Of a stretch of DNA of 20,000 nt, positions 4,701 through 17,847 are shown piece by piece. Source of the DNA: an uncultured virus (IMG/VR IMGVR_UViG_3300025138_000017) (Duplodnaviria; Heunggongvirae; Uroviricota; Caudoviricetes); the IMG/VR virus record IMGVR_UViG_3300025138_000017; one strand, written 5' to 3'. Positions within the stretch are counted from its first letter, which is position 1; each line of letters starts with the position of its first letter. Below the pieces are notes generated by a model, which saw only the letters and a program-made list of their open reading frames with translations, searched no databases and was not told the DNA's origin. Both the position numbers and the translations under genes were made by a program.

Positions 4701-7700
4701 GTTTGTATATTGACCAACATAGTTCTTAGTATAGTTTGTTACATAATCTCTAGAATAATTGGTTGTGTATACTCCAACATATGCTTTTGTCCACTGACCT
4801 GAATATGCTTTTTGGAAGTTCTTATTATAGTTACCAGTAAACTGTCCGGCAAACCCTCTTGAGTATTGACCGATCCATTGTTGAGCATAGTTGGTTACAA
4901 ACGTACCCGCAAACACGCCTTCATATATATTTGTATATTGACCTACATATGCTTTCTGATAAGCAGTAGAGTAAGTTCCGTCAAACGAACCACCATATAT
5001 GTTTGTGTATTGGCCTACGTATGCTCTTTGATATGCTGTGTTATATGTTCCTGAAAATGCACCTTCATAGATATTCGTATATTGACCAACATAGTTTTTA
5101 GTATAATTGGTTGCATACTGGCCAGTAAAGGTTTTAGTATATTGACCAGTGTATTGTTTTAAATAGTTAGTAGCATATTGACCAGTATATGTTTTAGTAT
5201 ATTGTCCTGTATATGTCTTAGTATAATTTACATCATAGTTTTTAGTATAATTGGTTGCATACTGACCAGCAAACGCTTTTGTATATTGACCTGTGTACTG
5301 TTTTAAATAGTTTCTAGTATATGTTCCACTAAACTGTGTATTGTAAGTTCCAGAATATGCTCTATCATAGTTTCCAGCATAAGTCTTAGTGTAATTACCA
5401 GTATATGATTTTGTGTATTGACCAGTATATTGTCTTAAAAAGTTGGTAGCATACTGACCAGAATATCCTTTAGTATAATTACCAGTATAAGAACCTGTAT
5501 ACTGTCCAGTGTATGCTCCAGTATATTGACCTGCATATGCTCTTTGATAGCTAGTGTCATATTGTTTTAAATAGTTTTTATTATATGAACCACTAAACTG
5601 CTTAGTATATTGACCAGTATATTGTTTTAAATAATTGGTTCCATACTGGCCAGCAAATTGTCTATTATATGTACCACTAAACTGTTTGTTATAGTTACCT
5701 GCATATGCTCTAGTGTAGTTAGTTGCATATGTTCCACTATATTGTGTAGCGTATGTTCCTGTGTACTGTCCAGAATAAGCTGTTGAGAAATATCCTGTAT
5801 ATTGTTTAGTATAGTTGCCTGTAAATTGTCCTGTGTACTGTCCAGTAAATCCTCTAGTATATTGTCCTGTATACTGTCTTAAATAGTTAGTACTATAGGA
5901 CCCTGTATATGTTGTACTAAAGTATCCTGTATACTGACCTGAATATGTTGCAGTAGTTTGAGAGAAACAACCTTCGTATTCTTCAAAGTCATCATCACCA
6001 GTATCAATAAAGATTCTACAATATGTACCACCACTACTGAATTGTTGAGATACTGACCCTACAAATGTTCTAGTATAGTTAGTTGTTTTTACATAGTTTA
6101 AAAATTGGCTCCCAAATTTACTAGAGACAACCCTGTTGTAAGTTACATTACCAGCAAACTGTCTAGTATAATTTACATTTGCAGTACCAGTAAATTGTTG
6201 AACTGCCCCAACATAGTTTCCTGTATATTGAGTAGATCTGGTTACTCTTACATAGTTTCCTGAATAAGCTCTTGTATAGTTGGTTCCATATGATCCACTA
6301 TATTGTGAATTATATGTTCCGGAAAATTGACTACTATATGTTCCAGCAAATTGTTTTGAGTAGTTTGTAGTTCTAGTTACCCTAGAATAACTTCCTGTCC
6401 ATTGTCTTGAGAAGTTTCCTGTATACTGTCCTGTGTATTGTCTTGTATAGTTAGTGCTGTAATATCCAGTATATGTCTTAGTATAGTTTCCTGAATATGC
6501 TTTTGTATAGTTACCTGTATACTGTCTTAAAAAGTTAGTACCATATGTTCCACTATACTGTGCTGAGTATTGACCTGTGTACGATCTAGTAAAGTTAGTT
6601 CCATATTGTCTTGTATAGTTGGTAGCATAGTATCCTGTATACTGTCCAGAATAGGTTCCACTATACTGTCCTGAATATGCACCAGAGTATGCTCTGTCAT
6701 AATTTCCTGTATAATGTTTAGTATAGTTAGTTCCATATGTTCCAGCAAATTGACTGGTGTACGTGCCACTATATGCTCTATCATAGTTTCCAGTATATCT
6801 TTTAGTATAGTTACCTGTATATGATTTAGTATATTGACCTGTGTATGCTTTTTGGAAGTTAGTACCATACGTTCCACTATATTGAGAACTATAGTTACCT
6901 GTGTACTGTCTTTGATACTGAGCCGTATAAGTTTTTAAATAGTTTTTATTATAGTCACCAGAGTATGCTCTGTTATAGTTTCCCGTATAATGTTTAGTAT
7001 AGTTAGTTCCATATGTTCCAGAATATTGTTTATTGTAGTTACCTGTATACTGTCTAGTATAGTTAGTAGCAAATGACCCTTCCCATATTCTATCATACTG
7101 TCCTATATAAGAACCAACATATGCTTTAGTATAGTTTCTAGCAAATGATCCTTCCCATATTCTATCGTATTGTCCTACATAAGATCCAACATATGCTTTA
7201 GTATAGTTTCTAGTAAATGATCCTTCCCATATTCTATCGTATTGTCCTATGTACTGACCAACATATGCTTTCTGATATTGAGCTGCGTATGGTCCTAAGA
7301 ATGTTCCTGTGTATACTCCAGTCCATTGCGTCTGGAATAATTTAGTATAGTTGGTATTATATACGCCAGTGTAGGTGGTGTTATAGGAACCTTCATATGC
7401 TTTCTGATATTGTTTAACATAATTCTTAGCATAGTTTGTAGCAAATGAACCTTCCCAGATTCTATCATATTGTCCTACATATTGGCCAACATAGTTTTTA
7501 GTGTAATTCTTTGCAAACGTTCCTTCGAATGCTCCTGTGTATTGTCCTAGCCAAACTTTAGCATATTGCTTTGCATATGCTTTTTGATATACGCCTGTAT
7601 ATGTTTTGGTGTATACGCCTGTAAATATTGTAGAGTATACTCCTTCCCATATCTTGGTGTACTGGCCTTCATACTGTGCAGCCCATTGTACAAGATATGC

Positions 7701-10700
7701 TTTTTGATATTGTTTTGTATATACTCCAGTCCATTGTTTTGCATATGAACCTTCCCACTGTTGTGCGTATGCTGCAACATATTGTTTAGCATATTGTTTT
7801 GAATACTGACCGACATAAGCCTTTTCATATTGTCCAAGGTAAACTTTATCATATTGGGTAACAAATGTTCCTTCCCATATTCTATCATATTGGCCTACGT
7901 ATTGGCCAACATATGCTTTCTCGTATTGTTTTGAATAAGCCTTTTCATATGTTTTTACATATTGTCCGGTCCACTGTTGTTGATATTGAGCAACATAGTT
8001 TTTAGCATAGTTGGTTGTATACTGTCCTGTGAATCTTCCTTCGTATTGTCCAGCCCATTGTTGTAGGTATTGGGCAACATAGTTTTTAGCATATGCAGTT
8101 TGGAATTCACCTGCATATCTTTTTTCGTATATTCCTGTCCACTGTTGCTGGTATTGTGCTGCATAGTCTTTTTGATACTGACGAAGATAAACACCAACAT
8201 AGTCTGTCTCATAAGATCCTTCATAATCTTTGGTGTATTGAGTAACAAACGTACCTTCCCATATTCTATCGTATTGTCCTATGTACTGACCAACATATGC
8301 TTTTTCGTATTGTTTAGCAAATGTTCCTTCCCATTGCTTAGTGTACTGACCTGCCCATTGTTGTTCGTATTGGGTTACATAATCTTTAGCATAGTTAGTA
8401 TTATAGTCGCCATCAAATGCTCTTTCGTATGCACCAGCATATGCCTTTTGATATTGTGTTACAAACTGGCCTTCAAATGCTCCTGTGTATTGTCCTACCC
8501 ATTGTTGCTGATATTGCTTAACATAATTCTTAGCATAGTTGGTTTCATAGTCGCCAAGATATGCTTTAGAGTATGAGCCTTCGTATTGTTTATCGTATTG
8601 AGTAACAAACGTACCTTCCCATATTCTATCGTATTGTCCTACCCATTGACCAACATAAGCCTTTTCATATTGCTTACTATATTGTTTTACATATTGACCA
8701 ATGTAATCTTTTGTATATTGAGCTACGTATTGACCAACATATTCTTTTGTATATTGTGCAACATAGTTCTTAGCATATTGTCCTGTGTATGCTTTTATAT
8801 AATTTGTAGTATACTGACCACCATATTGACCAGCATAGAGACCTACATATGCTTGGCCCCAGTTTTGTTCATATAATCCTGTGTATTGATTAATCCACGT
8901 CTTACCGTATACGCCTGTATACTGTTGAAGATAATTACGTGCGTAGATTCCTGCATACTGTTTTAAGTATTGTGTTGCGTATTGGCCAACGTATTGTTTA
9001 GCATAACCTTTGTTCCAATTACTTAAATAATTCTTTTCATAGGATCCAACATATGCTTTCTCCCATATTCTATCATATTGGCCAACATATGTCTTTGTGT
9101 ATTGAGCTTCGTATATTCCAACATAATCTTTTGTGTATGTTTTTATATACTGGCCTATGAAATCCTTTTCGTAGTTCTTAATATAAGAACCTACATAAGC
9201 TCCTTCAAATGTTTTTTGATATGCTCCAACATAATCTTTATTATATGATGTAACATAATCTTTTATATAACCAGCAGTATAGTTACCAACATAATTAGCT
9301 TCTAAGAAATATCCTGAGAATAATTCTGAAGCACTATCATATTGTCCAGTGAATGTTCTATCACCTTCGTATTGTTTTGTATACTGACCTGTATATGCTT
9401 TTAAGTATCCTTGAGTATAGAAACCATTATATTCTCTATCACCCTCGTATGCTTTTGTAAATTGCTTTTGATAGTTTGTACCAAGATACCCTTTACTAAA
9501 GTTTTGAGTAAATTGGCCAGTGTATGTTCTTGTTCCAGTATATTGTTTTGTGTATTGACCTGTGTATGATGCTGTCCAATTACCAATATATATTTTTTGG
9601 TATTGATCTGCATACTGTCCTGTATATGTTCTACTACCAGCGTATGTGCCTTCGTATGAGCCCGTATACTGCTTTGCATATTGCTCAACATACTGTCCCG
9701 TATAGTTAGCTGCGAAAATGCCTTCAAACTGTTTTACGCCGGTGTAATACCCTGTGTATTGTCCATCGAACGAGCCTTCAAATTGTTTAGAGTATGCTCC
9801 AGTCCATTGTTGGCCAAATGATCCTTCATATTGTTTACTATACTGTCCTGTGTAAATTCCTGTATAAGTTGTATTAAAAGATCCTTCAAATACACCTTCG
9901 TATATTTTACTGAATGTTCCTTCAAATTGGCCTTCGTATTGCCCCAGGTATGCACCCATGTACTGTCCAGCAAACGCTCCGGAATATTGGGAAATAAAGA
10001 ATCCATCAAACGAGCCTTCATATTGCTTAGTAAATGAGCCTTCGTATTGTTTGCTGTACAGACCAGTATAAGACTTAAGATATATTTTATCATATTGGCC
10101 AACATACTGTTTAACATATACGCCTGTATATGTTCCTTCAAAAGAACCTTCGTATTGGGTTAAGAATGTTCCTTCGTATTGTTTTGTGTAGTTTCCAGAA
10201 AATGAACCTTCATACAATCCGGTATATGTTTTATTAAAGTTTCCTTCATATTGTCCAATATATTCTTTTGTATATTGGGAAACAAAGACACCCTCATATT
10301 GTTTTTCGTAATGGTGTGTGTATATACCGACATATTGCTTTGCATATTGAGATGCATATTGGCCAACATAGTTTGTATTGTATCCTATATCAGCTAAAGT
10401 GTTTCTATTATCAACAAATGATCCACCTACTTGTACCCAGGTCTCACCTGAAGCTGCAGGGTTAGTCGCTGATAATTTATATTGTCCTATACCAGTAGCA
10501 TATATTTGATTTCTCAATCTCATTGCTAATAGTTTTATCTCTGCATCGGACATCTCTTTAATTGCAGAGTTTTGAATTTTTGCTGTTCTAACAACAGAAG
10601 GTGCAGAAACACCTTGGGTCTTACGCCATAAGGTATATGTAGTCGTACCACCTAAAGTGGTATCGGTCATTGTGGATCCAGTACTTGTATAAAGGCTATT

Positions 10701-11129
10701 GTTGGGATTTGTTTCAGACAAGTGGTAGGATCCCAAACCGGACGATGTAAGATTCGCAAGTGCTCTTGATATAAGGACAGAGTTTAGAGTATTACTATGC
10801 TCAGATGCATAGCCGCTGTCATTAAGAAACAATGGGTACACCATAGATGTTTCTGCGATCGAATTGAGATTTTGTTTAAGTGTATATGTTTGGGACGTTA
10901 TATTATTAGCAGCTGGATGAGTACCTACGCTTTCTGTTCTATAGGTATCAGTGAAAGAACCCATTGAGGTTCCCTGTCCATTTATGTTTAAAGTACCAAG
11001 GCCAGAAGTGCTTGTTGAGAATTCAGATAGAATTTGATGGACGGCGTAATCCATCTCGGTAGTCTGCATTTCCTGCACACCGAGAAAAGTACCCCCTCCG
11101 GTCGTTTTTATTCTAAGTGGATTTCCCAA
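1725..11129 (-). CDS. Giant (3134 aa) aromatic-tetrapeptide repeat protein, probable virion fibre/filament with mirror-registered arms
   Basis: Uninterrupted 9.4-kb ORF with a TTG start 4 nt after the upstream stop; ~250-aa non-repetitive N-domain, then (Y/F/W)xxx repeats over aa 250-3112, then a short C-terminal strand; located in a tail-fibre cluster. Confidence 0.85.
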   Translation of the reverse strand: MGNPLRIKTTGGGTFLGVQEMQTTEMDYAVHQILSEFSTSTSGLGTLNINGQGTSMGSFTDTYRTESVGTHPAANNITSQTYTLKQNLNSIAETSMVYPLFLNDSGYASEHSNTLNSVLISRALANLTSSGLGSYHLSETNPNNSLYTSTGSTMTDTTLGGTTTYTLWRKTQGVSAPSVVRTAKIQNSAIKEMSDAEIKLLAMRLRNQIYATGIGQYKLSATNPAASGETWVQVGGSFVDNRNTLADIGYNTNYVGQYASQYAKQYVGIYTHHYEKQYEGVFVSQYTKEYIGQYEGNFNKTYTGLYEGSFSGNYTKQYEGTFLTQYEGSFEGTYTGVYVKQYVGQYDKIYLKSYTGLYSKQYEGSFTKQYEGSFDGFFISQYSGAFAGQYMGAYLGQYEGQFEGTFSKIYEGVFEGSFNTTYTGIYTGQYSKQYEGSFGQQWTGAYSKQFEGSFDGQYTGYYTGVKQFEGIFAANYTGQYVEQYAKQYTGSYEGTYAGSRTYTGQYADQYQKIYIGNWTASYTGQYTKQYTGTRTYTGQFTQNFSKGYLGTNYQKQFTKAYEGDREYNGFYTQGYLKAYTGQYTKQYEGDRTFTGQYDSASELFSGYFLEANYVGNYTAGYIKDYVTSYNKDYVGAYQKTFEGAYVGSYIKNYEKDFIGQYIKTYTKDYVGIYEAQYTKTYVGQYDRIWEKAYVGSYEKNYLSNWNKGYAKQYVGQYATQYLKQYAGIYARNYLQQYTGVYGKTWINQYTGLYEQNWGQAYVGLYAGQYGGQYTTNYIKAYTGQYAKNYVAQYTKEYVGQYVAQYTKDYIGQYVKQYSKQYEKAYVGQWVGQYDRIWEGTFVTQYDKQYEGSYSKAYLGDYETNYAKNYVKQYQQQWVGQYTGAFEGQFVTQYQKAYAGAYERAFDGDYNTNYAKDYVTQYEQQWAGQYTKQWEGTFAKQYEKAYVGQYIGQYDRIWEGTFVTQYTKDYEGSYETDYVGVYLRQYQKDYAAQYQQQWTGIYEKRYAGEFQTAYAKNYVAQYLQQWAGQYEGRFTGQYTTNYAKNYVAQYQQQWTGQYVKTYEKAYSKQYEKAYVGQYVGQYDRIWEGTFVTQYDKVYLGQYEKAYVGQYSKQYAKQYVAAYAQQWEGSYAKQWTGVYTKQYQKAYLVQWAAQYEGQYTKIWEGVYSTIFTGVYTKTYTGVYQKAYAKQYAKVWLGQYTGAFEGTFAKNYTKNYVGQYVGQYDRIWEGSFATNYAKNYVKQYQKAYEGSYNTTYTGVYNTNYTKLFQTQWTGVYTGTFLGPYAAQYQKAYVGQYIGQYDRIWEGSFTRNYTKAYVGSYVGQYDRIWEGSFARNYTKAYVGSYIGQYDRIWEGSFATNYTRQYTGNYNKQYSGTYGTNYTKHYTGNYNRAYSGDYNKNYLKTYTAQYQRQYTGNYSSQYSGTYGTNFQKAYTGQYTKSYTGNYTKRYTGNYDRAYSGTYTSQFAGTYGTNYTKHYTGNYDRAYSGAYSGQYSGTYSGQYTGYYATNYTRQYGTNFTRSYTGQYSAQYSGTYGTNFLRQYTGNYTKAYSGNYTKTYTGYYSTNYTRQYTGQYTGNFSRQWTGSYSRVTRTTNYSKQFAGTYSSQFSGTYNSQYSGSYGTNYTRAYSGNYVRVTRSTQYTGNYVGAVQQFTGTANVNYTRQFAGNVTYNRVVSSKFGSQFLNYVKTTNYTRTFVGSVSQQFSSGGTYCRIFIDTGDDDFEEYEGCFSQTTATYSGQYTGYFSTTYTGSYSTNYLRQYTGQYTRGFTGQYTGQFTGNYTKQYTGYFSTAYSGQYTGTYATQYSGTYATNYTRAYAGNYNKQFSGTYNRQFAGQYGTNYLKQYTGQYTKQFSGSYNKNYLKQYDTSYQRAYAGQYTGAYTGQYTGSYTGNYTKGYSGQYATNFLRQYTGQYTKSYTGNYTKTYAGNYDRAYSGTYNTQFSGTYTRNYLKQYTGQYTKAFAGQYATNYTKNYDVNYTKTYTGQYTKTYTGQYATNYLKQYTGQYTKTFTGQYATNYTKNYVGQYTNIYEGAFSGTYNTAYQRAYVGQYTNIYGGSFDGTYSTAYQKAYVGQYTNIYEGVFAGTFVTNYAQQWIGQYSRGFAGQFTGNYNKNFQKAYSGQWTKAYVGVYTTNYSRDYVTNYTKNYVGQYTNIYGGVFAGSYATNYTKNYVGQYASQFTGSFDAQYTTNYTRDYTGNYDRAYTGNYTKAFVGQFTDQYTGLFTTNYTKNWERQYATNYEGQFEGQYVGLFAASYERAYTTQYTKTYEGVFVSQYEGAFTENYAKNYVGQYTNIYGGVFEGTYTTQYAKSYIKNFDKAYEGQFTDNYAKDYIAQYAKQYEGNYDRQFTGQFADNYAKDYVTEYVKTYAGNYDRQYTGQYTDNYTKIYSTNYQKDYTGTYTKAFVGIYQTQYAKNYVGQYTNIYGGVFEGTYTTNYTKNYVGQYTDVYEGQFTDNYAKNYVNQYQKTYTGSYAREFTGGESVNYAQAYLGQYASQFTGAFTDNYSKDYIEQYAKAYTGSYSKAFLGQFSEQYAKAYIGQYTNIYGGVFEGTYTTNYTQQYAKAYEGQFSTQYAKLYEGIFSTNYAKDYVAQYEGDFNTTYAKAYEGQYTTQYEGAFGVQYAKLYEGQFATNYDTTYTGQFGTNYEKTYEGQFATNYEKAYEGVFETSYVKTYTGLFVKAYEGQFNKQYLALYEGSFDTNYTKSYQGSFTTDYLKSFVGQYGKTYLTLYEGIYVGVFNTQFVGQYARAYTKNYQKEYGQTYEGSFARNWEGQFAKQYEGDRTYTGQYGTQYTGVFNKTYTKAYSGSRTYTGQYSANYQKVFVVEYVKQYAGQFEGDRSYEGQYAHQWEGVFNTTYVSANYQKAYAKQWTGDRTFSGQYDGQYTGQFTRQYEKTYEGVYIGYWTGIYEGAHAYQGIYQGTYIGQYTGTFEGQFGASYVGQYTKTYEGEFTGSYVKSYLGQYTGQYTKQYAKQFSKQFEGSFNKQYEGIYVGQFEKAWVGSFLGQYSGEYLGQYTKQYEGEFQRSYVGTWLKIYSKDYEGTFTGQFTQQFEKAYVGLYEKSYSGQFDQQFTGNYVKTYTQLFEGSFTTQYEKAYIGQYTKQYEKAYEGSFTTNFVAQYEGTYTHAYAGQTVQAGTETITTLKLWVRTA
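1794..10382 (-). repeat. Degenerate 12-nt / 4-aa coding repeat array (e.g. YTGQ, YEGQ, YTKN, YVGQ)
   Basis: Aromatic residue at nearly every fourth position for ~2,860 aa; higher-order 24-aa (72-nt) and 120-aa (360-nt) duplications, e.g. an identical 47-nt stretch at 8235-8281 and 8595-8641. Confidence 0.95.
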
Positions 11130-11133
11130 TTTA

Positions 11134-14100
11134 CTAAGCCTTTAATTTAAACGCGCTATCCCCAAATACGCTACCAGTATTTATAAAACTTACTCGACTA
11201 GCATCATAACCTATTATAGCTGATCCTGGCTCGCCTCCGTTTCCTGACTGTGCGTATTGAGAATAGTGGGTTCCTGGGTTAGCAACATTCTGTGATGCAT
11301 CTGAGTCATCATTATACCCGCCTGCACCTGTTCCTAGTTGACCTAGTAATCCACCATTTCCTCCATGTATGCCTAATGCTGTGGATGCATTAGTGCCATT
11401 TCTATCTGAACTGCTTTCTGAAATGAAAGCTCCTGAATTCCATCCAGCACCAGTTCCACCGATGCCTCCAGAGCTACTTACTCCGTTTACGGGATAGCCA
11501 CCGCCACCTCCGCCACCACCGCCACCGGCGATGATACCATAATTTTCTATATAAACTTCTATACCGTTACCCATCTTAATAGCGTCACCACCATTAGCAC
11601 CATTCTGTCCAGTTGTAGCACCTAGACCAGCTACACCAGATTTACCAATAATATTTCCATCTGGTTTAACTAATATTTTAACTTTATGGTTAATATTTTG
11701 AATAGCTCCAAATCCTGATAAGTCAAGTGCTGGTGTAGTTTGATGATCTGAATATACATATACATCATCTGCTATTGTAATGTTAACATGTTGAGGTCTT
11801 GTTGCTTTTGATTTACCTAAGCTACTTAAATGAGCTGATAGGTTAAATTGTGATGTATTACTAGAAAGAGTTATATCTGTTCTTTCATAATTGACGCCTG
11901 TTATCTTCCATTGGCCGTCTTCTTTCTTTCTTACAATTGATACATCTCTCCATGCATCATTTTCTTTTATTTTTATATCTTTAGCTTGTTTCCATATGCT
12001 AGCATCTTTCACTCTAATTAAGCCACCATCATCTGTTAGCTCACCACTCTTAGTGTTAGCTACTGCAGTAGTTGTCACATATGAAGTATGGAATGTTTGA
12101 GGTCCTGCAAAGTTTGTTGCAAATCTCAAGGTGTCTCCTATACTGGCATAAGCCCCTTGATATACTCCACCATATGCTTTTACATAAGCACCTACGTATG
12201 TTTTATTAAATGCACCTTCATATAATTTAGAATACACTTTACCAAACTGAGCACCAAATTGTCCTTCGTATTCTTTAGTATATTGTTTGACGTATACTTT
12301 ATTATACACTCCTACAAATGCACCTTCATACTGACCTGTGAATAGAGCTCCATATTGTTTAATATATTGGCCTATAAATGTTCCTGTGTATTGACCAAGG
12401 TACACGCCTTCGTATGCTTTGATATAATTCTTTTCAAAGTTGTGTGTAACTAGTCCAGTAAAGTTTCCATTTGCTGATGCGTTGTATAAAGCTGGTCCTT
12501 GGAATTGTCTTGAATATACACCTGTCCAATGTTGAGTATATGTTTTAACATAGTCTTTATTATATTGACCAATGTACTGTCCTGTGTATGCTTTTTCATA
12601 TTGCTTTACAAAAGAACCTTCAAACAATCTTGAGTATTGTCCTACCCATATTTTATTGTAAACCTTTTCATATGCTTTAGAATATTGCTTTGTATATATT
12701 CCTGTATAGTAACCAATATAATATCCTATTGTTGTCCATGTCTTTTCATACTGTTTTAGATATCCTTTTTGATAAGACCTTGACCATCCGCTGGCGCCTC
12801 CAGCTCCATAATAAAGGGTTTTACTATGCATATAGCTTGAGGTAAATTGACCCCCGTAATGAGCTATAAAATTCACACCAGAATTGACTCCTAGATAACC
12901 AGTTCTTGCATCTGACCATGCAGATAGGTAGAACATGAGGTCAACCAAGGTTGAACCTTTGATGTATGCTTGCGGGCCCGAATCCGAATATGATTTTGCA
13001 TACGTTGCCAGGTTGCCAGTTGCTCCAAGATAAGAATTTAACTCCAAATCTTCAAAGTTTCTTTGATAATAAACACCACCTGTTCCTTGATATCCCGTTG
13101 CATCTGCACCAGCCTCTGGGTCCGCATCGGCAGTATTGCCACCAATATATGCTCTTGTCTGTGCACCAGTATATTGAGTTATGAATTCGCCACCCAGCAG
13201 GCCTGCTTTGGAATAAACGGTTCCACCAGACGCATAATACAGTGTACCAAATTCTCTATTGTTACCTTGTTCCCAAGACACACCTTGTGCGTTTAGATAA
13301 CTTCCTGTGCTCCCGGATGCATAGTTAGTACCACCACTATCTGAATAGTTAAGTACTTGAGATGGTGTGTCAGATGCGTTTACAAATAAACGAGAATAGC
13401 CTATATCGCCACTCCATGATTTAGAGTATTGAGCTGTAAAACCTAGGGAAACTGTACCCTCAAACCCTTCACCATCTTCTTCAGAATAAGTATTAACTAC
13501 TCTTACGTATGCGGTACCTTGATAATAGATCCCTTCGTACTGACTAGTTGCACCCCAAAATTTGCTGAAGTGGCGGAGAAATTGCGACTCATAATTTCCT
13601 ATATAAGTTTTGGCCCAAGTTTTGTAATACGATTTGTGATATTGCTTTAAGTACTCTTTTCCATAATGAGCAATATAATTTAAGTTTTCTGATCTATATG
13701 AATTAAATACTCCTTCATAATCCTTACTGTAATGTTTTGTCCACTGCGTAGTATAAGCTGCACCAAAACTTCCTTCAAAGGTTCCTTCGTATTGTCCTAG
13801 ATATGCTTTCTCGTATTGAGTGGTGAATACGCCCTCGTACACACCTTCGTATGTTTTAGTGTATGTTTTACTATAAGAAAGTCCGGATGCAAATGTTCCT
13901 TCAAATGCACCCTCGTACATTACTAGATAAGGACCACCTAAAAATTGTTTAGCAAATTGACGAGAGTAGCTAGCTATATAACTTTTATTATAATAACCAG
14001 TAAACGCTCCTTCAAACTGTCTGTTGAAAGCTCCCTCATAAGTCTTGCTAAAGCTATTACCAAACTGTCCTTCAAATTGACTAGTAAATGAACCTTCGTA

Positions 14101-14349
14101 AGCCTTGCTGTATTCTTTGCTGTATTGTTTTGAGTATACGCCTAACCACACACCATCGTATTGTTTGCCCCATTGTTTTTCGTATTGGCCTAGATATGTT
14201 TTTGTGTAGTCGCCTAGATAAGTTTTTAGATATGACGCAAGAAAATGCTCTATGCCTCTAATTTGATTAGCATAGTTAGTCCCAACATAGGATGCTGCGA
14301 ACTGTCTATCGTCACCTGCGAAAGACTTTGCGTAATTAATATCTGCCAC
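11134..14349 (-). CDS. 1071-aa tetrapeptide-repeat protein with C-terminal gp38-like glycine-rich adhesin domain
   Basis: GTG start with GGGGAG SD (14355-14360); Yxxx repeats at aa ~40-290 and ~525-734; Trp-spaced linker (IWKQ..AWRD..GQWK); C-terminal GGDAIKMG...IENYGIIAGGGGGGGGG and further Gly-rich motifs typical of T2/T6/S16 gp38 polyglycine adhesins. Confidence 0.75.
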   Translation of the reverse strand: MADINYAKSFAGDDRQFAASYVGTNYANQIRGIEHFLASYLKTYLGDYTKTYLGQYEKQWGKQYDGVWLGVYSKQYSKEYSKAYEGSFTSQFEGQFGNSFSKTYEGAFNRQFEGAFTGYYNKSYIASYSRQFAKQFLGGPYLVMYEGAFEGTFASGLSYSKTYTKTYEGVYEGVFTTQYEKAYLGQYEGTFEGSFGAAYTTQWTKHYSKDYEGVFNSYRSENLNYIAHYGKEYLKQYHKSYYKTWAKTYIGNYESQFLRHFSKFWGATSQYEGIYYQGTAYVRVVNTYSEEDGEGFEGTVSLGFTAQYSKSWSGDIGYSRLFVNASDTPSQVLNYSDSGGTNYASGSTGSYLNAQGVSWEQGNNREFGTLYYASGGTVYSKAGLLGGEFITQYTGAQTRAYIGGNTADADPEAGADATGYQGTGGVYYQRNFEDLELNSYLGATGNLATYAKSYSDSGPQAYIKGSTLVDLMFYLSAWSDARTGYLGVNSGVNFIAHYGGQFTSSYMHSKTLYYGAGGASGWSRSYQKGYLKQYEKTWTTIGYYIGYYTGIYTKQYSKAYEKVYNKIWVGQYSRLFEGSFVKQYEKAYTGQYIGQYNKDYVKTYTQHWTGVYSRQFQGPALYNASANGNFTGLVTHNFEKNYIKAYEGVYLGQYTGTFIGQYIKQYGALFTGQYEGAFVGVYNKVYVKQYTKEYEGQFGAQFGKVYSKLYEGAFNKTYVGAYVKAYGGVYQGAYASIGDTLRFATNFAGPQTFHTSYVTTTAVANTKSGELTDDGGLIRVKDASIWKQAKDIKIKENDAWRDVSIVRKKEDGQWKITGVNYERTDITLSSNTSQFNLSAHLSSLGKSKATRPQHVNITIADDVYVYSDHQTTPALDLSGFGAIQNINHKVKILVKPDGNIIGKSGVAGLGATTGQNGANGGDAIKMGNGIEVYIENYGIIAGGGGGGGGGGYPVNGVSSSGGIGGTGAGWNSGAFISESSSDRNGTNASTALGIHGGNGGLLGQLGTGAGGYNDDSDASQNVANPGTHYSQYAQSGNGGEPGSAIIGYDASRVSFINTGSVFGDSAFKLKA
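11178..11185 (-). promoter_or_regulatory. Possible T4-type late promoter (TATAAATA) for the giant gene
   Basis: Exact consensus inside the 3' end of the upstream gene, ~50 nt before the giant ORF start; chance matches are plausible in AT-rich DNA. Confidence 0.45.
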
Positions 14350-14360
14350 TCAGGCTCCCC

Positions 14361-14699
14361 TTATGTTAGAGTCTGATACCAGATGTCGCCGTTAGTGCCT
14401 ATAGAGTTACTACTTGGTGCTGAACTAGATATGTATATCTTTTGATTAGGTGTATGTGCAAATGATCCACTTGCTACACCTGCTGCATTAGTATTTGCAA
14501 ATGTTACACCAGTGACGTTTACAGACGTATTAGATGCTGCTGTTATTCTACCTTTAGCATTTACTGTGAACGTAACTAATTGAGTATTATTCGAAGTGTG
14601 CGTTGCTGCACTTACACCAGTATCTGATAAAGCTGTATCAACAACCTTAGCTGATGAATTAACTACCTCGGTACTGCCGTGTAAAATTTGATCAGACAT
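14361..14699 (-). CDS. Small tail-fibre-motif protein (112 aa), possible adaptor
   Basis: Contains LSDTGVSAA...FTVNAKGRITAASN and ISSSAPS...GTNGDIWYQ, both common phage tail-fibre motifs; start overlaps the upstream stop by 8 nt. Confidence 0.7.
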   Translation of the reverse strand: MSDQILHGSTEVVNSSAKVVDTALSDTGVSAATHTSNNTQLVTFTVNAKGRITAASNTSVNVTGVTFANTNAAGVASGSFAHTPNQKIYISSSAPSSNSIGTNGDIWYQTLT

Positions 14700-17600
14700 C
14701 TTCTTCCTCGTTTTCCTCTACATTAGGTTCTAGTTCTTTTACTCTTTCGGTCAACTCTTTGACGGCTTCTATCAGTAATGGTATCAGCGCATTATAGTTA
14801 ACTGTTTTAAACCCACGACTATTTATATCTACAGCGTGAGGCAACACGTTCTCCAATTCTTGAGCTATAACCCCATAGTCTGGTGTTCCAACTCTCATGT
14901 CTCCGATGTTGTTATTCCATACAAATTCATAACCACCAAGAGCATTTACTTTATCTAATGCAGTGTCTATCTTTAATATGTTATCTTTTAATTGTTGGTC
15001 TGATGAATAACTAGCTACTAGATCATCAGTAGCGTATATGTTATTTGCCAATACAGCTGTAGTATTAGCTAACGTATCTCCAACTACTATGCTAGTATCA
15101 AAGTATCCATTTTTGAATGATTTAGCTGCTGAGCCAATATCCCATTGATTGGTATTTGATGCAAACACATGACCATTAACTGAAGCATTTGCAAATACTA
15201 ATTGAACAGTATTTGCTCCATTACCAATTTGTACTATATTATTACCTGCGCCAGTTGTAGATGCTCCTGTTAACTTAAGAGAATTTGTAACTGTTACATT
15301 TGCAGATCCTAATTCAGTAGCTGTTAATGTTGTGTCTGATGGGAATTGAGCTGATACTCCAACCTGTAAGTGATCAACAACTAAGTTGTTAGATGTTAAT
15401 GCTGTTGCGTTAGCACTTATACCAGTATTAGAGAATATAACATTACTTGTATTTGCTAATGTAATATCATCACCAACTGATAGATCACCAACAATAGCAC
15501 CGGACGCTGCATTTACTTCTCCAGTAATGTCTACGTCTCCACCTGCTGTTATAACTCCTGATGTGTTTATTGTTGCACCAATTAGATCCCATCTAGCACT
15601 TGCAGCACCTAAGGTTAATCCATTAGCATTCGGTAAGACATTAGAAGCAACATCTGCTGTAAATGTTACTTTGTCTGTTGCAGCACTACCTATGATTGTA
15701 TTACCTGAAACTGTTAAGTCATTTCTTATTACTGCATTGTAAACATTTGCTTCTTTGTTATCAGCTATATCTAAATCATTTGATAATGTAGTAACTCCAA
15801 CAATGTTTGCTGATCCTGATAATGTTGTAGCACCTGTTACACCAAGTGTGTTTGCAAGAGATGCTGCTTTTAATACTGTTAAGGTTCCATCTGTGTGAAC
15901 AGCTGTAGAAGTTAATGATGTGTTTACTGTACTATTACCTACTGATAATTTAGATGCAGATAAGTTTACGTTTGCGCCTACATTATAGGCTACTGTTGTA
16001 TTAGATGTTCCTGTAACTGCTATACCATCACCAAAGGTTGCGTGGCCTGTATGTGTTGATAGTGTTGTGACTTTTAATACATTTGTATTTGTTGTTGCAG
16101 CTGCTTCTATATTAGCACTTGCTGTTATAACGCCTGTAGATGTAAGTGTACCAGATGTGTTTGCATTTGTAAATGACGCATTGTGCCATCTGTGATTTGT
16201 GTCACCAAGTACAACATTATTACCGTGTAGAGGTATAAGACCTTGTGTACTATTTCCAACTAATCCTTTTACTATAAGTCTATCAAAACCGTGTGTTGCG
16301 TTTGCTGCACCTGCATTACCTAAAGTTATTGTTCTGGTATTACCTGCTAATGATGTTACTAATGTATTGACTGTTGAGTTAGCAACAGTGAATTGAGCAT
16401 TAACAGATACATTGCCACCAACTGTAGCATTTCTAGTTATTGTTAAATCATTGTTGGATGTTATATCTTCACCGACTAAATCATCAGCTACTACATCCCA
16501 TCTTGCTGCTACGCTACCTAAACTTTTACTTCCATTAGCACTCGGTATTATGTTTGTATCGACTACACCAACAACTGATATTGTATCGCTTGCTGCTGAG
16601 CCTAAATCTGTATTGCCTTGAACTACAAGGTCTGTGTCTATGTTTACTGATGCATCAAAGTCTGCATCTTTAGTAACTTTTATTTTATCTGAGAATACTG
16701 CGTTAGCTGTAACTGTTAATAGATCACTATTAGCATTACCAATAGTAGCATTAGCTGTAGTTGTTAGGATCCCATCAATGTTTGTTGCTGAATTAATATC
16801 TAAATTCGTACCATGAATATTCATATTGGTAGAATCTATTAATGTGTTTGTTCCTGATACATTAAAGTCTGTTGACGTGATATCGGTTAATGCATTGTCA
16901 ACATCTAAGTTTGCATTTGCATCTATCTTAGTATTGAATATGTTAGTTGTAGCATTAGAAGTAAATGTTACTGCTGTTGCATCCATCTCTACTGCTGTGC
17001 TATTAGCTTTTAATACACCAGCATTGATATCTATTACTGCTGCATCTATGTTTACATTTGAACTTACATTAAACTCACCACCGTTAATTGCTGTGTTAGT
17101 AGATGAGAAATTGGTTAATGTATTATTAAAGTCTGCATCAGCATTAATGTCTAGTGGTGTATTGAATACATTGAGTCCAGCATTTGATGTAAATATATTT
17201 GCAGTAGGATCTATATTAATCTTATGTGTTGTTGAATTACTCTGTGTTACATTAAGTGCACCAGCCAGTACATCAAAGCTAGCTGCATCAAAGTTTACAT
17301 TAGATGTAATATTTAATTCACCATTTTCAACAACTGTATTACTAGATGTTATTTGTGTTAATGTATTGTCAATATCTAAGGTTGCATTTAGATCTATCTT
17401 AGTATTGAATATATTTGTTACTGCATTGGATTCAAATACTTTTGCAGTAGAATTAATTGTTAGATTGTTTGAAGTAGAGTTTGTTGTTAGTTGTACGCCA
17501 GGTGCAAAGTGTGCATTTGATTGTGCATGTATTATTGCATTAGCTGTACTGTTAGCTATGAATACTACATTTGAACTAATAATTAAATTAGCTGCTGCAG

Positions 17601-17847
17601 CCTTTGTTCCATATACTGTACTATTAGCTGTTACACCAGATAACTTTTGTTCTACTAATAAACTATTAGCACTAAAGAAACCATTAACATAAGAGTTACC
17701 AGTCGTGCAAGCACCTTGAGTATTTGCAACTGTTGATACGACAAACTTTTCCATATCGTAAGTAATTCTATTAGTGAGGTCAACCCACTCTCTAAATGTA
17801 TCTGACGAAGGCGTAATGTTAGCGTTTAAATAATTATTACTAGCCAT
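14692..17847 (-). CDS. Tail fibre protein with C-terminal intramolecular chaperone (peptidase S74)
   Basis: N-terminal DTFREWVDLTN motif; N/T/S/A-rich beta repeats; repeated GN..G.A..D and P......LG....RW motifs; C-terminal SDQQLKDNI...ALDKVNAL.GYEFVW...GVIAQELENVLP.AV...VNYNALIPLLIEAVKEL plus coiled coil. Confidence 0.88.
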   Translation of the reverse strand: MASNNYLNANITPSSDTFREWVDLTNRITYDMEKFVVSTVANTQGACTTGNSYVNGFFSANSLLVEQKLSGVTANSTVYGTKAAAANLIISSNVVFIANSTANAIIHAQSNAHFAPGVQLTTNSTSNNLTINSTAKVFESNAVTNIFNTKIDLNATLDIDNTLTQITSSNTVVENGELNITSNVNFDAASFDVLAGALNVTQSNSTTHKINIDPTANIFTSNAGLNVFNTPLDINADADFNNTLTNFSSTNTAINGGEFNVSSNVNIDAAVIDINAGVLKANSTAVEMDATAVTFTSNATTNIFNTKIDANANLDVDNALTDITSTDFNVSGTNTLIDSTNMNIHGTNLDINSATNIDGILTTTANATIGNANSDLLTVTANAVFSDKIKVTKDADFDASVNIDTDLVVQGNTDLGSAASDTISVVGVVDTNIIPSANGSKSLGSVAARWDVVADDLVGEDITSNNDLTITRNATVGGNVSVNAQFTVANSTVNTLVTSLAGNTRTITLGNAGAANATHGFDRLIVKGLVGNSTQGLIPLHGNNVVLGDTNHRWHNASFTNANTSGTLTSTGVITASANIEAAATTNTNVLKVTTLSTHTGHATFGDGIAVTGTSNTTVAYNVGANVNLSASKLSVGNSTVNTSLTSTAVHTDGTLTVLKAASLANTLGVTGATTLSGSANIVGVTTLSNDLDIADNKEANVYNAVIRNDLTVSGNTIIGSAATDKVTFTADVASNVLPNANGLTLGAASARWDLIGATINTSGVITAGGDVDITGEVNAASGAIVGDLSVGDDITLANTSNVIFSNTGISANATALTSNNLVVDHLQVGVSAQFPSDTTLTATELGSANVTVTNSLKLTGASTTGAGNNIVQIGNGANTVQLVFANASVNGHVFASNTNQWDIGSAAKSFKNGYFDTSIVVGDTLANTTAVLANNIYATDDLVASYSSDQQLKDNILKIDTALDKVNALGGYEFVWNNNIGDMRVGTPDYGVIAQELENVLPHAVDINSRGFKTVNYNALIPLLIEAVKELTERVKELEPNVEENEEEDV
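14820..14827 (-). promoter_or_regulatory. Possible internal late promoter (TATAAATA)
   Basis: Exact consensus ~120 nt upstream of the 112-aa gene, within coding sequence; may be chance. Confidence 0.3.
16860..17450 (-). repeat. Three ~75-80 aa internal repeats in the tail fibre
   Basis: FESNAVTNIFNTKIDLNATLDIDN / FTSNAGLNVFNTPLDINADADFNN / FTSNATTNIFNTKIDANANLDVDN; atctatcttagtattgaatat occurs at both ~16921 and ~17392. Confidence 0.85.

What the first reader, a model, noticed from the sequence alone, without database searches (positions are those of the whole stretch)
12148..14232. Second, smaller mirror-hairpin protein next door
In the 1071-aa protein the regular tetrads start at Y40 and end at Y734 (sum 774). 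The irregular patch at aa ~136-160 (FLGGPY..FASGLSY) mirrors that at ~616-638 (FQGPALY..FTGLVTHNF), with sums ~774-776. A ~235-aa irregular, loop-rich centre lies between the arms and begins with YVRVVNTYSEEDGEGFEG, echoing the RV and acidic motifs at the giant's tip. This suggests a two-member family of fold-back filaments with different bases and tips. Evidence is thinner than for the giant.
Basis: partly seen in the sequence, partly recalled or inferred. Interest (0 to 1): 0.72.

Follow-up and report, generated by a model that had tools for sequence, protein, structure and literature searches.

The report
Fold-back stalk fused to gp38 adhesin
A tail-fibre protein of an uncultured T4-like phage seems to run out and back on itself as a long two-armed stalk that carries a fast-changing head at its far end and a well-known fibre-tip adhesin at its base, a layout not described for any studied phage.

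Summary
The mirror layout is real. The 1071-aa protein (11134-14349, minus strand) has an aromatic residue every fourth position in two arms (aa 36-265 and 494-734) around an irregular centre.

The pairing register is not i+j of about 775. Tetrad position 3 (K or G in 74 of 91 tetrads) matches between the arms, read in opposite directions, at i+j=766 in the outer segment (17 of 23 identical; 16 of 5000 shuffles reach this). It matches at 763 in the next segment. The same register holds in relatives.

Relatives also change both arms together:
- Arm lengths correlate at r=0.91 over 20 proteins.
- G/non-G states switch on both arms at once.
- Two bulge motifs exchange arms.

Both AlphaFold models are of low confidence, but they give equal-length strand pairs at matching sums.

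Between this window and a near-identical phage record, aa 320-529 (the head) holds 58 of the 62 amino-acid differences in the gene. The neighbouring giant differs at only 6 of 3134 residues.

Best reading: a gp38-type cap whose N-terminal extension is a fold-back stalk with a hypervariable, probably host-facing head. This scan has noted the same fibre class on other DNA. I found no paper describing it.

The parts
11134..14349 (-). Whole gene, 1071 aa plus stop, GTG start. Relatives begin MADINY/MAEINY at the same place.
14245..14349 (-). N-terminal base piece, aa 1-35. It is conserved (R15 invariant; I4, F17 and G23 nearly so). Residues 5-21 resemble residues 742-757 of the linker in the same direction.
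   Evidence: the resemblance is by eye
13555..14244 (-). N arm, aa 36-265: aromatic-x-(K/G)-x tetrads in three segments of 25, 14 and 10 tetrads.
13873..13944 (-). N-arm bulge, aa 136-159. It holds the GGPY motif with the only proline of this arm (P139).
12871..13554 (-). Irregular centre (head), aa 266-493. No family or fold was assigned.
13456..13509 (-). Arg-hydrophobic then acidic motif, aa 281-298, similar to the Cys-flanked apex of the giant (giant aa 1703-1722).
   Evidence: the similarity is by eye
12763..13392 (-). Hypervariable cassette, aa 320-529. It holds 115 nt and 58 aa differences plus small indels against record G001. Against that, aa 530-1071 hold 6 nt and 2 aa differences.
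12148..12870 (-). C arm, aa 494-734: tetrads in segments 494-538, 544-616 (18 tetrads) and 638-734 (24 tetrads).
12436..12504 (-). C-arm bulge, aa 616-638. It holds the GPxxYNxxxxGNF-type motif with the only proline of this arm (P619).
12022..12147 (-). Conserved linker, aa 735-776, between the stalk base and the adhesin.
11896..12021 (-). Three 14-residue repeats, aa 777-818, each with a conserved Trp (W786, W800, W814). Stand-alone gp38-like proteins start with the same repeats.
11137..11895 (-). gp38 adhesin core with glycine-rich motifs (G942-G951 run), aa 819-1071.
1725..11129 (-). Context: the next gene, a 3134-aa tetrad giant with the same fold-back layout.
14692..17847 (-). Context: upstream 1051-aa distal-tail-fibre-like protein with a C-terminal Peptidase_S74 chaperone domain. 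It is a candidate trimeric partner of the adhesin.

Best explanation
The gene encodes a tail-fibre tip protein in two parts.

The C-terminal part (aa 777-1071) is a complete gp38-type adhesin. It starts with three 14-residue repeats, each presenting one tryptophan. A beta-helix and polyglycine core follow. By analogy with phage S16, the three tryptophans plug one copy of the protein onto the end of a trimeric fibre (inferred).

The N-terminal 776 residues are an extension that leaves this junction. The chain runs out as about 57 aromatic-x-(K/G)-x tetrads and carries an irregular head of about 230 residues. It then runs back antiparallel to itself to a small base formed by aa 1-35 and 735-776. 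Pairing of the arms is shown by sequence statistics and by coupled change in relatives. It is not shown by a confident structure.

If the arms form a flat two-stranded beta ribbon, the stalk is at most about 75 nm long (230 residues at about 0.33 nm each, inferred).

The head is the part that differs between near-identical phages, so it most likely touches the host as a second, exchangeable recognition site held away from the fibre tip (inferred). The gp38 core is conserved and serves as anchor, and possibly as a constant receptor binder.
For: gp38 part:
- Pfam PF05268 matches at E 2.6e-12, 47.5 bits against a cut-off of 25, over aa 845-1064.
- phrog_2056 'tail fiber protein; host specificity' matches aa 788-1064.
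- The AlphaFold block pLDDT is 66-90 over aa 790-950. Foldseek gives probability 1.00 to PP01 gp38 (9v85_C) and S16 gp38 (6f45_D).
- W786, W800 and W814 sit 14 residues apart. W800 is invariant. W786 and W814 are kept in 14 and 15 of 16 aligned proteins.
- Four stand-alone gp38-like proteins of 251-292 aa begin with the same three repeats.
- S16 gp38 attaches through three conserved Trp placed 120 degrees apart on a gp37 trimer (PMC6851490, section 2.7, passages read).

Fold-back:
- The position-3 match is 17 of 23 at i+j=766 (16 of 5000 shuffles). In P0007 it is 20 of 24 at the equivalent register (4 of 5000).
- The mirror match beats the direct match in all 8 proteins compared.
- At the equivalent register (N-arm start plus C-arm end), G/non-G agreement is highest in 6 of 16 relatives and within 4 of it in 3 more (P0001, P0003, P0006). 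It is second to a shorter overlap of 10 tetrads in another 5.
- Tetrad columns 3, 5 and 21 show GG/xx/mismatch counts of 6/6/1, 6/6/1 and 6/7/0 over 13 relatives.
- N-arm and C-arm lengths correlate at r=0.91 over 20 proteins, while N arm against centre gives -0.06.
- The syntenic orthologue P0167 has segment lengths 34|9|13 against 30|9|13 tetrads, while this protein has 25|14|10 against 24|18|....
- The GGPY motif and the GPxxYN...GNF motif sit on opposite arms in 13 of 20 proteins: 7 one way round and 6 the other way.
- AlphaFold strands are E33-87 and E677-731 (55 and 55 residues, both end sums 764). In P0167 they are E37-51/E586-600 and E61-87/E550-576 (15/15 and 27/27 residues, sums 637).
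- Arm pLDDT profiles correlate in mirror with r=0.78 at sums 760-764, against 0.22 at 774.

Head:
- Against P0003, identity is 66% in the centre, 92-93% in the arms and 97-99% in gp38.
- Against record G001, aa 320-529 hold 58 of the 62 aa differences. dN/dS is 1.11 over aa 290-493.
- The giant next door differs from G001 at 6 of 3134 residues.
Against: - No confident structure exists. Mean pLDDT is 41.7 and 43.9, and the arms are mostly under 50. I could not read contacts, so pairing in the models is inferred from strand lengths and sums.
- For this protein alone the shuffle tests are moderate (p about 0.003 to 0.03). In several relatives the position-3 identity test is not significant: P0013 599, P0014 1275 and P0167 1313 of 5000 shuffles.
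- Relatives are not independent, so r=0.91 and the column counts overstate the number of events.
- Segment 2 has 14 tetrads on the N arm and 18 on the C arm. The innermost pairing is therefore uneven and unresolved.
- Sequence mirror symmetry cannot tell pairing within one chain from pairing between two chains.
- The three Trp repeats are predicted as beta hairpins, whereas S16 has helices.
- No sequence search reaches a solved gp38.
- The fibre that the adhesin would cap is not identified. The upstream fibre ends in a self-cleaving S74 chaperone, unlike S16 gp37.
- dS is also higher in the head (0.156 against 0.055). The variation may come from recombination rather than from selection on host binding.
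Confidence: 0.6

Rival explanations
1. Trimeric needle. Three chains each run out and back and bundle into a six-stranded rod, as in the T4 gp37 needle. The aromatic face forms the core, and three gp38 modules sit at the base.
For: The tetrads put an aromatic residue and K/G on one face, which needs burial. The T4 gp37 collar D10 is built from residues 811-881 and 1010-1026, so that chain also goes out and returns (PMC6957217, passage read). Most phage fibres are trimers (general knowledge).
Against: gp38 adhesins are monomers that cap a trimer (PMC6851490 section 2.7; PMC12032242 abstract). The three-Trp repeat here fits that trimer-to-monomer adaptor. The arms contain no HxH iron-site motif and only 4 His each. 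No sequence similarity to any solved chain was found.
Confidence: 0.15
2. Reverse polarity. The head docks onto the virion or another fibre, the stalk is only a spacer, and the gp38 module at the far end is the sole receptor binder.
For: In known phages the gp38 polyglycine domain is the receptor-binding end. The head has no recognisable binding fold.
Against: A docking surface should be conserved, yet the head is the most variable part: 66% against 92-99% elsewhere, and 58 of 62 differences against G001. The Trp adaptor, which in S16 is the docking element, is conserved.
Confidence: 0.12
3. Intermolecular pairing. The N arm of one chain pairs with the C arm of a second chain, giving an antiparallel dimer or a longer head-to-tail assembly instead of a hairpin.
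For: All sequence evidence demands only that the N and C arms pair in reverse order. It does not demand that they belong to one chain.
Against: Both monomer AlphaFold models place equal-length strands of the two arms at one sum within one chain, at low confidence. A dimer would put two adhesin modules at opposite ends, which fits no known fibre tip (inference).
Confidence: 0.08
4. No pairing. The two arms are independent repeat regions, and the mirror pattern comes from chance or shared repeat composition.
For: Both arms are built from the same tetrads, so some similarity is expected. There are also same-direction similarities, for example IAHYG...YLKQY in aa 225-245 and 494-538 (by eye).
Against: The mirror match exceeds the direct match in 8 of 8 proteins and exceeds shuffles. 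The arms co-vary in length and in G/non-G state. The bulge motifs swap arms while keeping mirrored positions.
Confidence: 0.05

Closest known systems
gp38 adhesins of S16/T2/PP01-type Straboviridae phages (Pfam PF05268; PDB 6F45 chain D, 9V85)
   Same: The C-terminal 295 residues match the family profile and fold, with glycine-rich motifs. Three regularly spaced conserved Trp sit at the start of the module, as in the S16 attachment domain.
   Different: Known gp38 proteins are stand-alone and about 250-290 aa long. Here the module carries a 776-residue N-terminal fold-back extension. The Trp repeats are predicted as beta hairpins, not helices. Variation between close relatives sits in the extension's head, not in the glycine-domain loops. 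No cultured-phage record matched the module by tblastn.
Needle (D10 collar plus D11) of the T4 long tail fibre protein gp37
   Same: The chain has an out-and-back course: D10 is made of residues 811-881 and 1010-1026 (PMC6957217). Host contact is at the far tip.
   Different: The T4 needle is about 200 residues long, an obligate trimer, and held by His-coordinated iron. Here each arm is about 230 residues of a strict four-residue aromatic repeat, without HxH, and with a domain-sized head of about 230 aa. No sequence similarity was found.
Giant tetrad-repeat fold-back proteins of uncultured T4-like phages (the neighbour P0002; Phage C48C1 CDS0201, annotated hypothetical)
   Same: They share the aromatic-x-(K/G)-x arms and the mirror register with position 3 matching position 3. 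Sequence similarity of the arms reaches E 4e-29 to C48C1 and 3.5e-28 to P0021.
   Different: The giants have an N-terminal domain of about 250 aa, a C-terminal ...LWVRTA return strand and a small Cys-flanked acidic apex. This protein has a short N-terminus, a large head, and a gp38 adhesin where the giants end.

Membership tests
gp38 adhesin (PF05268, S16/T2 type) | Match to the family profile above the curated cut-off | tested here: met
   47.5 bits against a cut-off of 25, E 2.6e-12, aa 845-1064. phrog_2056 matches at E 5.3e-14 over aa 788-1064.
gp38 adhesin (PF05268, S16/T2 type) | Fold like solved gp38 (beta-helix core with a polyglycine sandwich) | tested here: met
   Foldseek gives 9v85_C E 9.7e-4, probability 1.00, TM(target) 0.55, and 6f45_D E 2.3e-3, probability 1.00, TM(target) 0.42. 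The model's pLDDT in that part is 66-90. The glycine run G942-G951 is present. Whether PGII helices form cannot be read from the output.
gp38 adhesin (PF05268, S16/T2 type) | N-terminal attachment domain with three conserved Trp that plug into a gp37 trimer | tested here: inconclusive
   There are three 14-aa repeats with W786, W800 and W814, conserved in 14, 16 and 15 of 16 proteins. Stand-alone relatives start with them. They are predicted as beta hairpins, not the helices of S16. Binding to a trimer was not tested.
gp38 adhesin (PF05268, S16/T2 type) | Stand-alone monomeric protein of about 250-290 aa | tested here: not met
   The protein is 1071 aa, and the adhesin module is preceded by 776 residues in one reading frame. 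The oligomeric state is not testable here.
Tetrad fold-back fibre proteins (undescribed class; the neighbour giant is the reference) | Two arms with an aromatic residue every fourth position | tested here: met
   Across 91 tetrads in regular runs, position 1 is Y 62, F 23, W 6, and position 3 is K 39, G 35.
Tetrad fold-back fibre proteins (undescribed class; the neighbour giant is the reference) | Register-specific mirror match of position 3 between the arms | tested here: met
   Giant: mutual information is 1.122 bits at sum 3366, against 0.16-0.45 at 30 other sums. This protein: 17 of 23 identical at sum 766, reached by 16 of 5000 shuffles.
Tetrad fold-back fibre proteins (undescribed class; the neighbour giant is the reference) | Both arms change together in relatives | tested here: met
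   Arm lengths give r=0.91 over 20 proteins. GG/xx switches occur. Bulge motifs swap arms. The relatives are not independent.
Tetrad fold-back fibre proteins (undescribed class; the neighbour giant is the reference) | N-terminal anchor domain of about 250 aa and a C-terminal return strand (...LWVRTA) | tested here: not met
   This protein has only 35 residues before the arm and continues into a gp38 module.
T4 gp37 needle | Sequence similarity and repeated HxH iron sites | tested here: not met
   No solved chain matched at E up to 1 with either the protein or a profile. There is no HxH in either arm.

The most novel reading that the evidence does not exclude
A single polypeptide forms a two-stranded ribbon tens of nanometres long. 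Its register is set by a simple position-3 rule (G faces G, K faces K), much as bases set an RNA stem. The ribbon grows or shrinks by matched changes on both arms, and its paired bulges can flip between arms. Mounted on a gp38 fibre cap, it holds out an exchangeable head. In this lineage host-range evolution would then have moved from the gp38 loops to a cassette on a stalk, giving one fibre tip two separate recognition sites.
Probability: 0.4. Interest if true: 0.82.

Novelty: new variant of a known kind. Interest (0 to 1): 0.72.

Why it matters
gp38 adhesins are the textbook host-range determinants of T-even-type phages and are used for engineering host specificity. If this reading holds, an uncultured T4-like lineage has added a long self-pairing stalk with a swappable head to that adhesin. 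That would be a new way to build a thin rigid or semi-flexible protein rod from one chain, with a sequence rule simple enough to design from. It would also show where host range is set in these abundant environmental phages. The contrast between two near-identical phages is practical: about 28% amino-acid difference in the head (58 of 210 residues), against 0.4% (2 of 542) in aa 530-1071 of this gene and 0.2% (6 of 3134) in the next gene. This gives a ready-made natural pair for a swap experiment.

Tried and rejected
- Complex prediction on the two arms (aa 30-270 against 490-745, own alignment) returned 'no answer' with scores 0.00 and 0.01. The controls were not run. This is no evidence either way.
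- Full-length AlphaFold of this protein and of its syntenic orthologue gave low-confidence stalks.
- I found no sequence link to any solved structure with phmmer or with a profile.
- megablast of the gene against cultured phages found nothing. tblastn of the whole protein found only the giant of Phage C48C1. tblastn of the gp38 module found nothing. BLAST's low-complexity filter may hide glycine-rich matches.
- The search for related loci with the alignment found no relative. With the gp38 module it found one locus, L010.
- The ESM Atlas search of the centre gave only sub-threshold unnamed clusters, with scores 0.77 and 0.76.
- A smaller hairpin-plus-gp38 relative (P0035) looked useful for folding. 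Its homologues show that it is probably cut at the N-terminus, so I dropped it.
- I suspected a lectin-like middle domain in P0022, a relative of the giant. Pfam gave no family, so I dropped the idea.
- A diversity-generating template repeat for the head was not found in the window.
- The window's own assembly is not held.
- Literature searches:
  - Searches listed nothing on this design (titles and abstract starts read).
  - One search returned 0 papers.
  - One search returned no paper on Phage C48C1.
  - Subscription journals are not covered.
Full report
**Setting**

All long ORFs of the window lie on the minus strand and form one fibre block. In reading order they are:
- a protein of more than 643 aa (phrog_358);
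- a 1051-aa distal-tail-fibre-like protein ending in a Peptidase_S74 chaperone domain;
- a 112-aa protein;
- the 1071-aa protein of this finding (11134-14349);
- a 3134-aa giant, starting 4 nt after the 1071-aa protein's stop;
- proteins of 177 and 280 aa.

The same order (1046, 111, 952, 2838, 177 and 280 aa) recurs on a 50.7-kb IMG/VR contig. That contig also encodes a T4-type major capsid protein (PF07068, E 1.7e-149). Its closest cultured relatives are Stenotrophomonas phage DLP_6 (76%), Methylophilales phage Melnitz (70%) and cyanophages (69%). The phage is therefore an uncultured T4-like myovirus of unknown host. The window's own assembly is not held. The nearest record, G001, is a 21.7-kb fragment.

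**The observation**

Residues 40-734 correspond exactly to window 12148-14232.

Aromatic residues recur every fourth position in runs at aa 36-136, 141-153, 159-215 and 225-265, and again at 494-506, 522-538, 544-616 and 638-734. In 91 regular tetrads, position 1 is Y/F/W and position 3 is K (39) or G (35). Positions 2 and 4 are mostly polar.

The gene has no DNA-level inverted repeat that could produce a mirror layout.

**Is the mirror more than chance, and what is the register?**

I first learned the rule from the giant next door, where the numbers are large:
- Its segment lengths mirror each other: 53 tetrads at aa 250-462 against 53 at aa 2900-3112.
- 7 of 8 DRIW motifs have a T[ND][IV]Y partner at a sum of exactly 3364.
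- Mutual information between position 3 on one arm and position 3 on the other peaks at 1.122 bits at i+j=3366, against 0.16-0.45 at 30 other in-phase sums. There are 91 G-G pairs.

| Segment | Sum | G/non-G agreement | Source |
|---|---|---|---|
| 1 (aa 36-136 against 638-734) | 766 | 19 of 23 | |
| 1 | 774 (reader) | 13 of 24 | |
| 2 (aa 159-215 against 544-616) | 763 | 13 of 14 | |
| 2 | 775 (reader) | 5 of 14 | |

- Shuffling the tetrad order reaches these G/non-G values in 643 and 348 of 20000 trials.
- Exact identity of position 3 is 17 of 23 at sum 766, reached by 16 of 5000 shuffles.
- The best same-direction match is only 10 of 18.
- At sum 763 the two 10-residue breaks (aa 215-225 and 538-548) face each other.
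- The bulges can be threaded with small shifts of the sum: 766, then 763, 761 and 763 again. This threading is my own reading.
- Each arm has a single proline, and both prolines sit in the facing bulges (P139 and P619).

**Relatives**

Twenty proteins at E up to 1e-3 came from the word-indexed search. Eighteen carry the same tetrad arms plus gp38, or a fragment of that layout, and two are relatives of the giant. An exhaustive profile-free search found 272 cluster representatives at E up to 1e-3, of which 84 are at E up to 1e-10.

- **Register.**
  - Agreement is highest at N-arm start plus C-arm end in 6 of 16 relatives. Examples are P0007 23 of 24, P0009 22 of 24 and P0004 21 of 25.
  - It is highest within 4 of that sum in 3 more. 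In this protein the sum is 766, because the C run extends one tetrad further.
  - It is second to a shorter overlap of 10 tetrads in another 5.
  - The identity test is significant in P0007 (4 of 5000 shuffles), P0009 (28) and P0012 (75). It is not significant in P0013, P0014, P0006 or P0167.
- **State switches.** Across 13 relatives, tetrad columns 3, 5 and 21 switch between G-G and non-G/non-G on both arms at once, with counts 6/6/1, 6/6/1 and 6/7/0.
- **Arm lengths.** N-arm and C-arm lengths correlate at r=0.91 over 20 proteins. N-arm length and centre length do not (r=-0.06).
- **Orthologue.** The syntenic orthologue has 34|9|13 tetrads going out and 30|9|13 coming back, where this protein has 25|14|10 and 24|18|....
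- **Bulge motifs.** A GGPY bulge and a GPxxYN...GNF bulge always sit about 100 residues from the base on opposite arms. In 7 proteins GGPY is on the N arm and in 6 it is on the C arm. In the other 7 of 20 only one motif was recognised, and the loose pattern also gave spurious extra hits.

Such a swap is what one expects if the two bulges are partners in one two-fold-like ribbon. These relatives share ancestry, so the counts are not numbers of independent events.

**Structure prediction**

Both full-length AlphaFold models are poor in the stalk (mean pLDDT 41.7 and 43.9), and I cannot read their contacts. What the output does show is long unbroken strands of equal length on the two arms:
- aa 33-87 and 677-731 (55 and 55 residues, both end sums 764);
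- in the orthologue, 37-51/586-600 and 61-87/550-576 (sums 637, against an aromatic register of 639).

The pLDDT profiles of the arms correlate in mirror with r=0.78 at sums 760-764 and 0.22 at 774. This fits the sequence-derived register. It hints that each aromatic residue lies across from position 3 of the other arm (sum two less than the aromatic-aromatic sum), but at this confidence that is only a lead.

**The C-terminal third**

- It matches Pfam PF05268 above the cut-off and phrog_2056.
- It is the confident part of both models (block pLDDT up to 90-92).
- Foldseek gives probability 1.00 to PP01 and S16 gp38.
- The module opens with three 14-residue repeats, each holding a conserved tryptophan (W786, W800, W814).
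- Four stand-alone gp38-like proteins of 251-292 aa begin with exactly these repeats.

In S16, three conserved tryptophans of the gp38 attachment domain insert every 120 degrees into pockets of the gp37 trimer (PMC6851490, section 2.7, passages read).

So the protein is best described as a fibre cap with a 776-residue N-terminal extension. The fibre it caps is not identified. The upstream S74-ended fibre is the obvious candidate, by position only.

**The head**

The centre has no family, fold or Atlas match. It is the most variable part:
- Identity to the closest full-length relative is 66% in the centre, against 92-99% elsewhere.
- Against G001, the gene is identical at the nucleotide level from aa 530 to 1071 apart from 6 nt.
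- In the same comparison, aa 320-529 carry 115 nt and 58 aa differences plus small indels.
- dN/dS is 1.11 over aa 290-493, against 0.18 in the linker and adaptor.
- dS is also raised there, so exchange by recombination is as likely as point-wise selection.
- The 3134-aa giant differs between the same two records at 6 residues.
- No template repeat of a diversity-generating element lies in the window.

A cassette that changes while everything around it stands still is the usual signature of a host-contact surface.

**Comparison with what is known**

- The adhesin part is a member of the gp38 family by profile and fold. It fails the family's stand-alone architecture.
- The stalk resembles the T4 gp37 needle only in its out-and-back course (PMC6957217). 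It has no sequence similarity to it, no HxH iron sites, and a different repeat.
- My literature searches listed nothing describing an aromatic four-residue fold-back fibre or a gp38 with such an extension. Subscription journals are not covered.
- This scan has noted the same fibre class on other DNA, including one note of a hairpin protein capping a fibre through a gp38-like part. I treated those notes as leads and tested everything on this window.

**Verdict**

- The fold-back reading is well supported by sequence and comparative evidence, but with a corrected register.
- The physical form (flat ribbon or coiled; monomer or bundle), the partner fibre and the role of the head remain inferred.

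Noticed in passing
window 1725-11129 (-), giant protein aa 250-3112: The giant's mirror symmetry is exact. Its outer runs are 53 and 53 tetrads. 7 of 8 DRIW motifs pair with T[ND][IV]Y at a sum of 3364. Four G[DST]R.. motifs lie on each arm at sums 3355-3356. Position-3 mutual information is 1.122 bits at sum 3366.
   Followed up: partly
window 1725-11129 (-), giant aa 1703-1722 and aa 164-173 / 3126-3134: The giant's only two cysteines flank its acidic apex motif. Its C-terminal ...TLKLWVRTA resembles TYTLWRKTQG inside its own N-terminal domain, as if the returning chain adds a strand to the anchor domain (by eye).
   Followed up: no
window 14287-14337 and 12079-12126 (-), aa 5-21 and 742-757 of the 1071-aa protein: The N-terminus and the post-stalk linker carry a similar motif in the same direction (x-aromatic-A-x-x-F-A-G ... 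F-x-x-S-Y). The two ends of the stalk may therefore form a small two-part base (by eye).
   Followed up: no
window 14361-14699 (-) and L010 7690-8025: A conserved 111-112-aa gene sits between the S74-ended fibre gene and the hairpin-gp38 gene in both phages. It has weak PHROG hits only (phrog_36881, phrog_3018). It could be a fibre assembly factor.
   Followed up: no
window 13615-13677 and 12736-12870 (-), aa 225-245 and 494-538: The innermost N-arm and C-arm segments share a same-direction similarity (IAHYG ... YLKQY.K). On the C arm it is interrupted by a 16-residue insert (by eye).
   Followed up: no
proteins P0032, P0035, P0168-P0170 (metagenomic): A second, more distant group joins YTKDY/IW-type tetrad arms, apparently with several nested hairpins, to a gp38-like module (Pfam PF05268 in P0032, E 4e-8). 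The stalk-plus-gp38 fusion is therefore wider than this family.
   Followed up: partly
L001 (Phage C48C1, OQ984149, 141011-151054): The only cultured-phage match is a 3347-aa 'hypothetical protein' in the tail-fibre block of a Kyanoviridae phage. It has 24% identity over aa 5-749 of the query.
   Followed up: no
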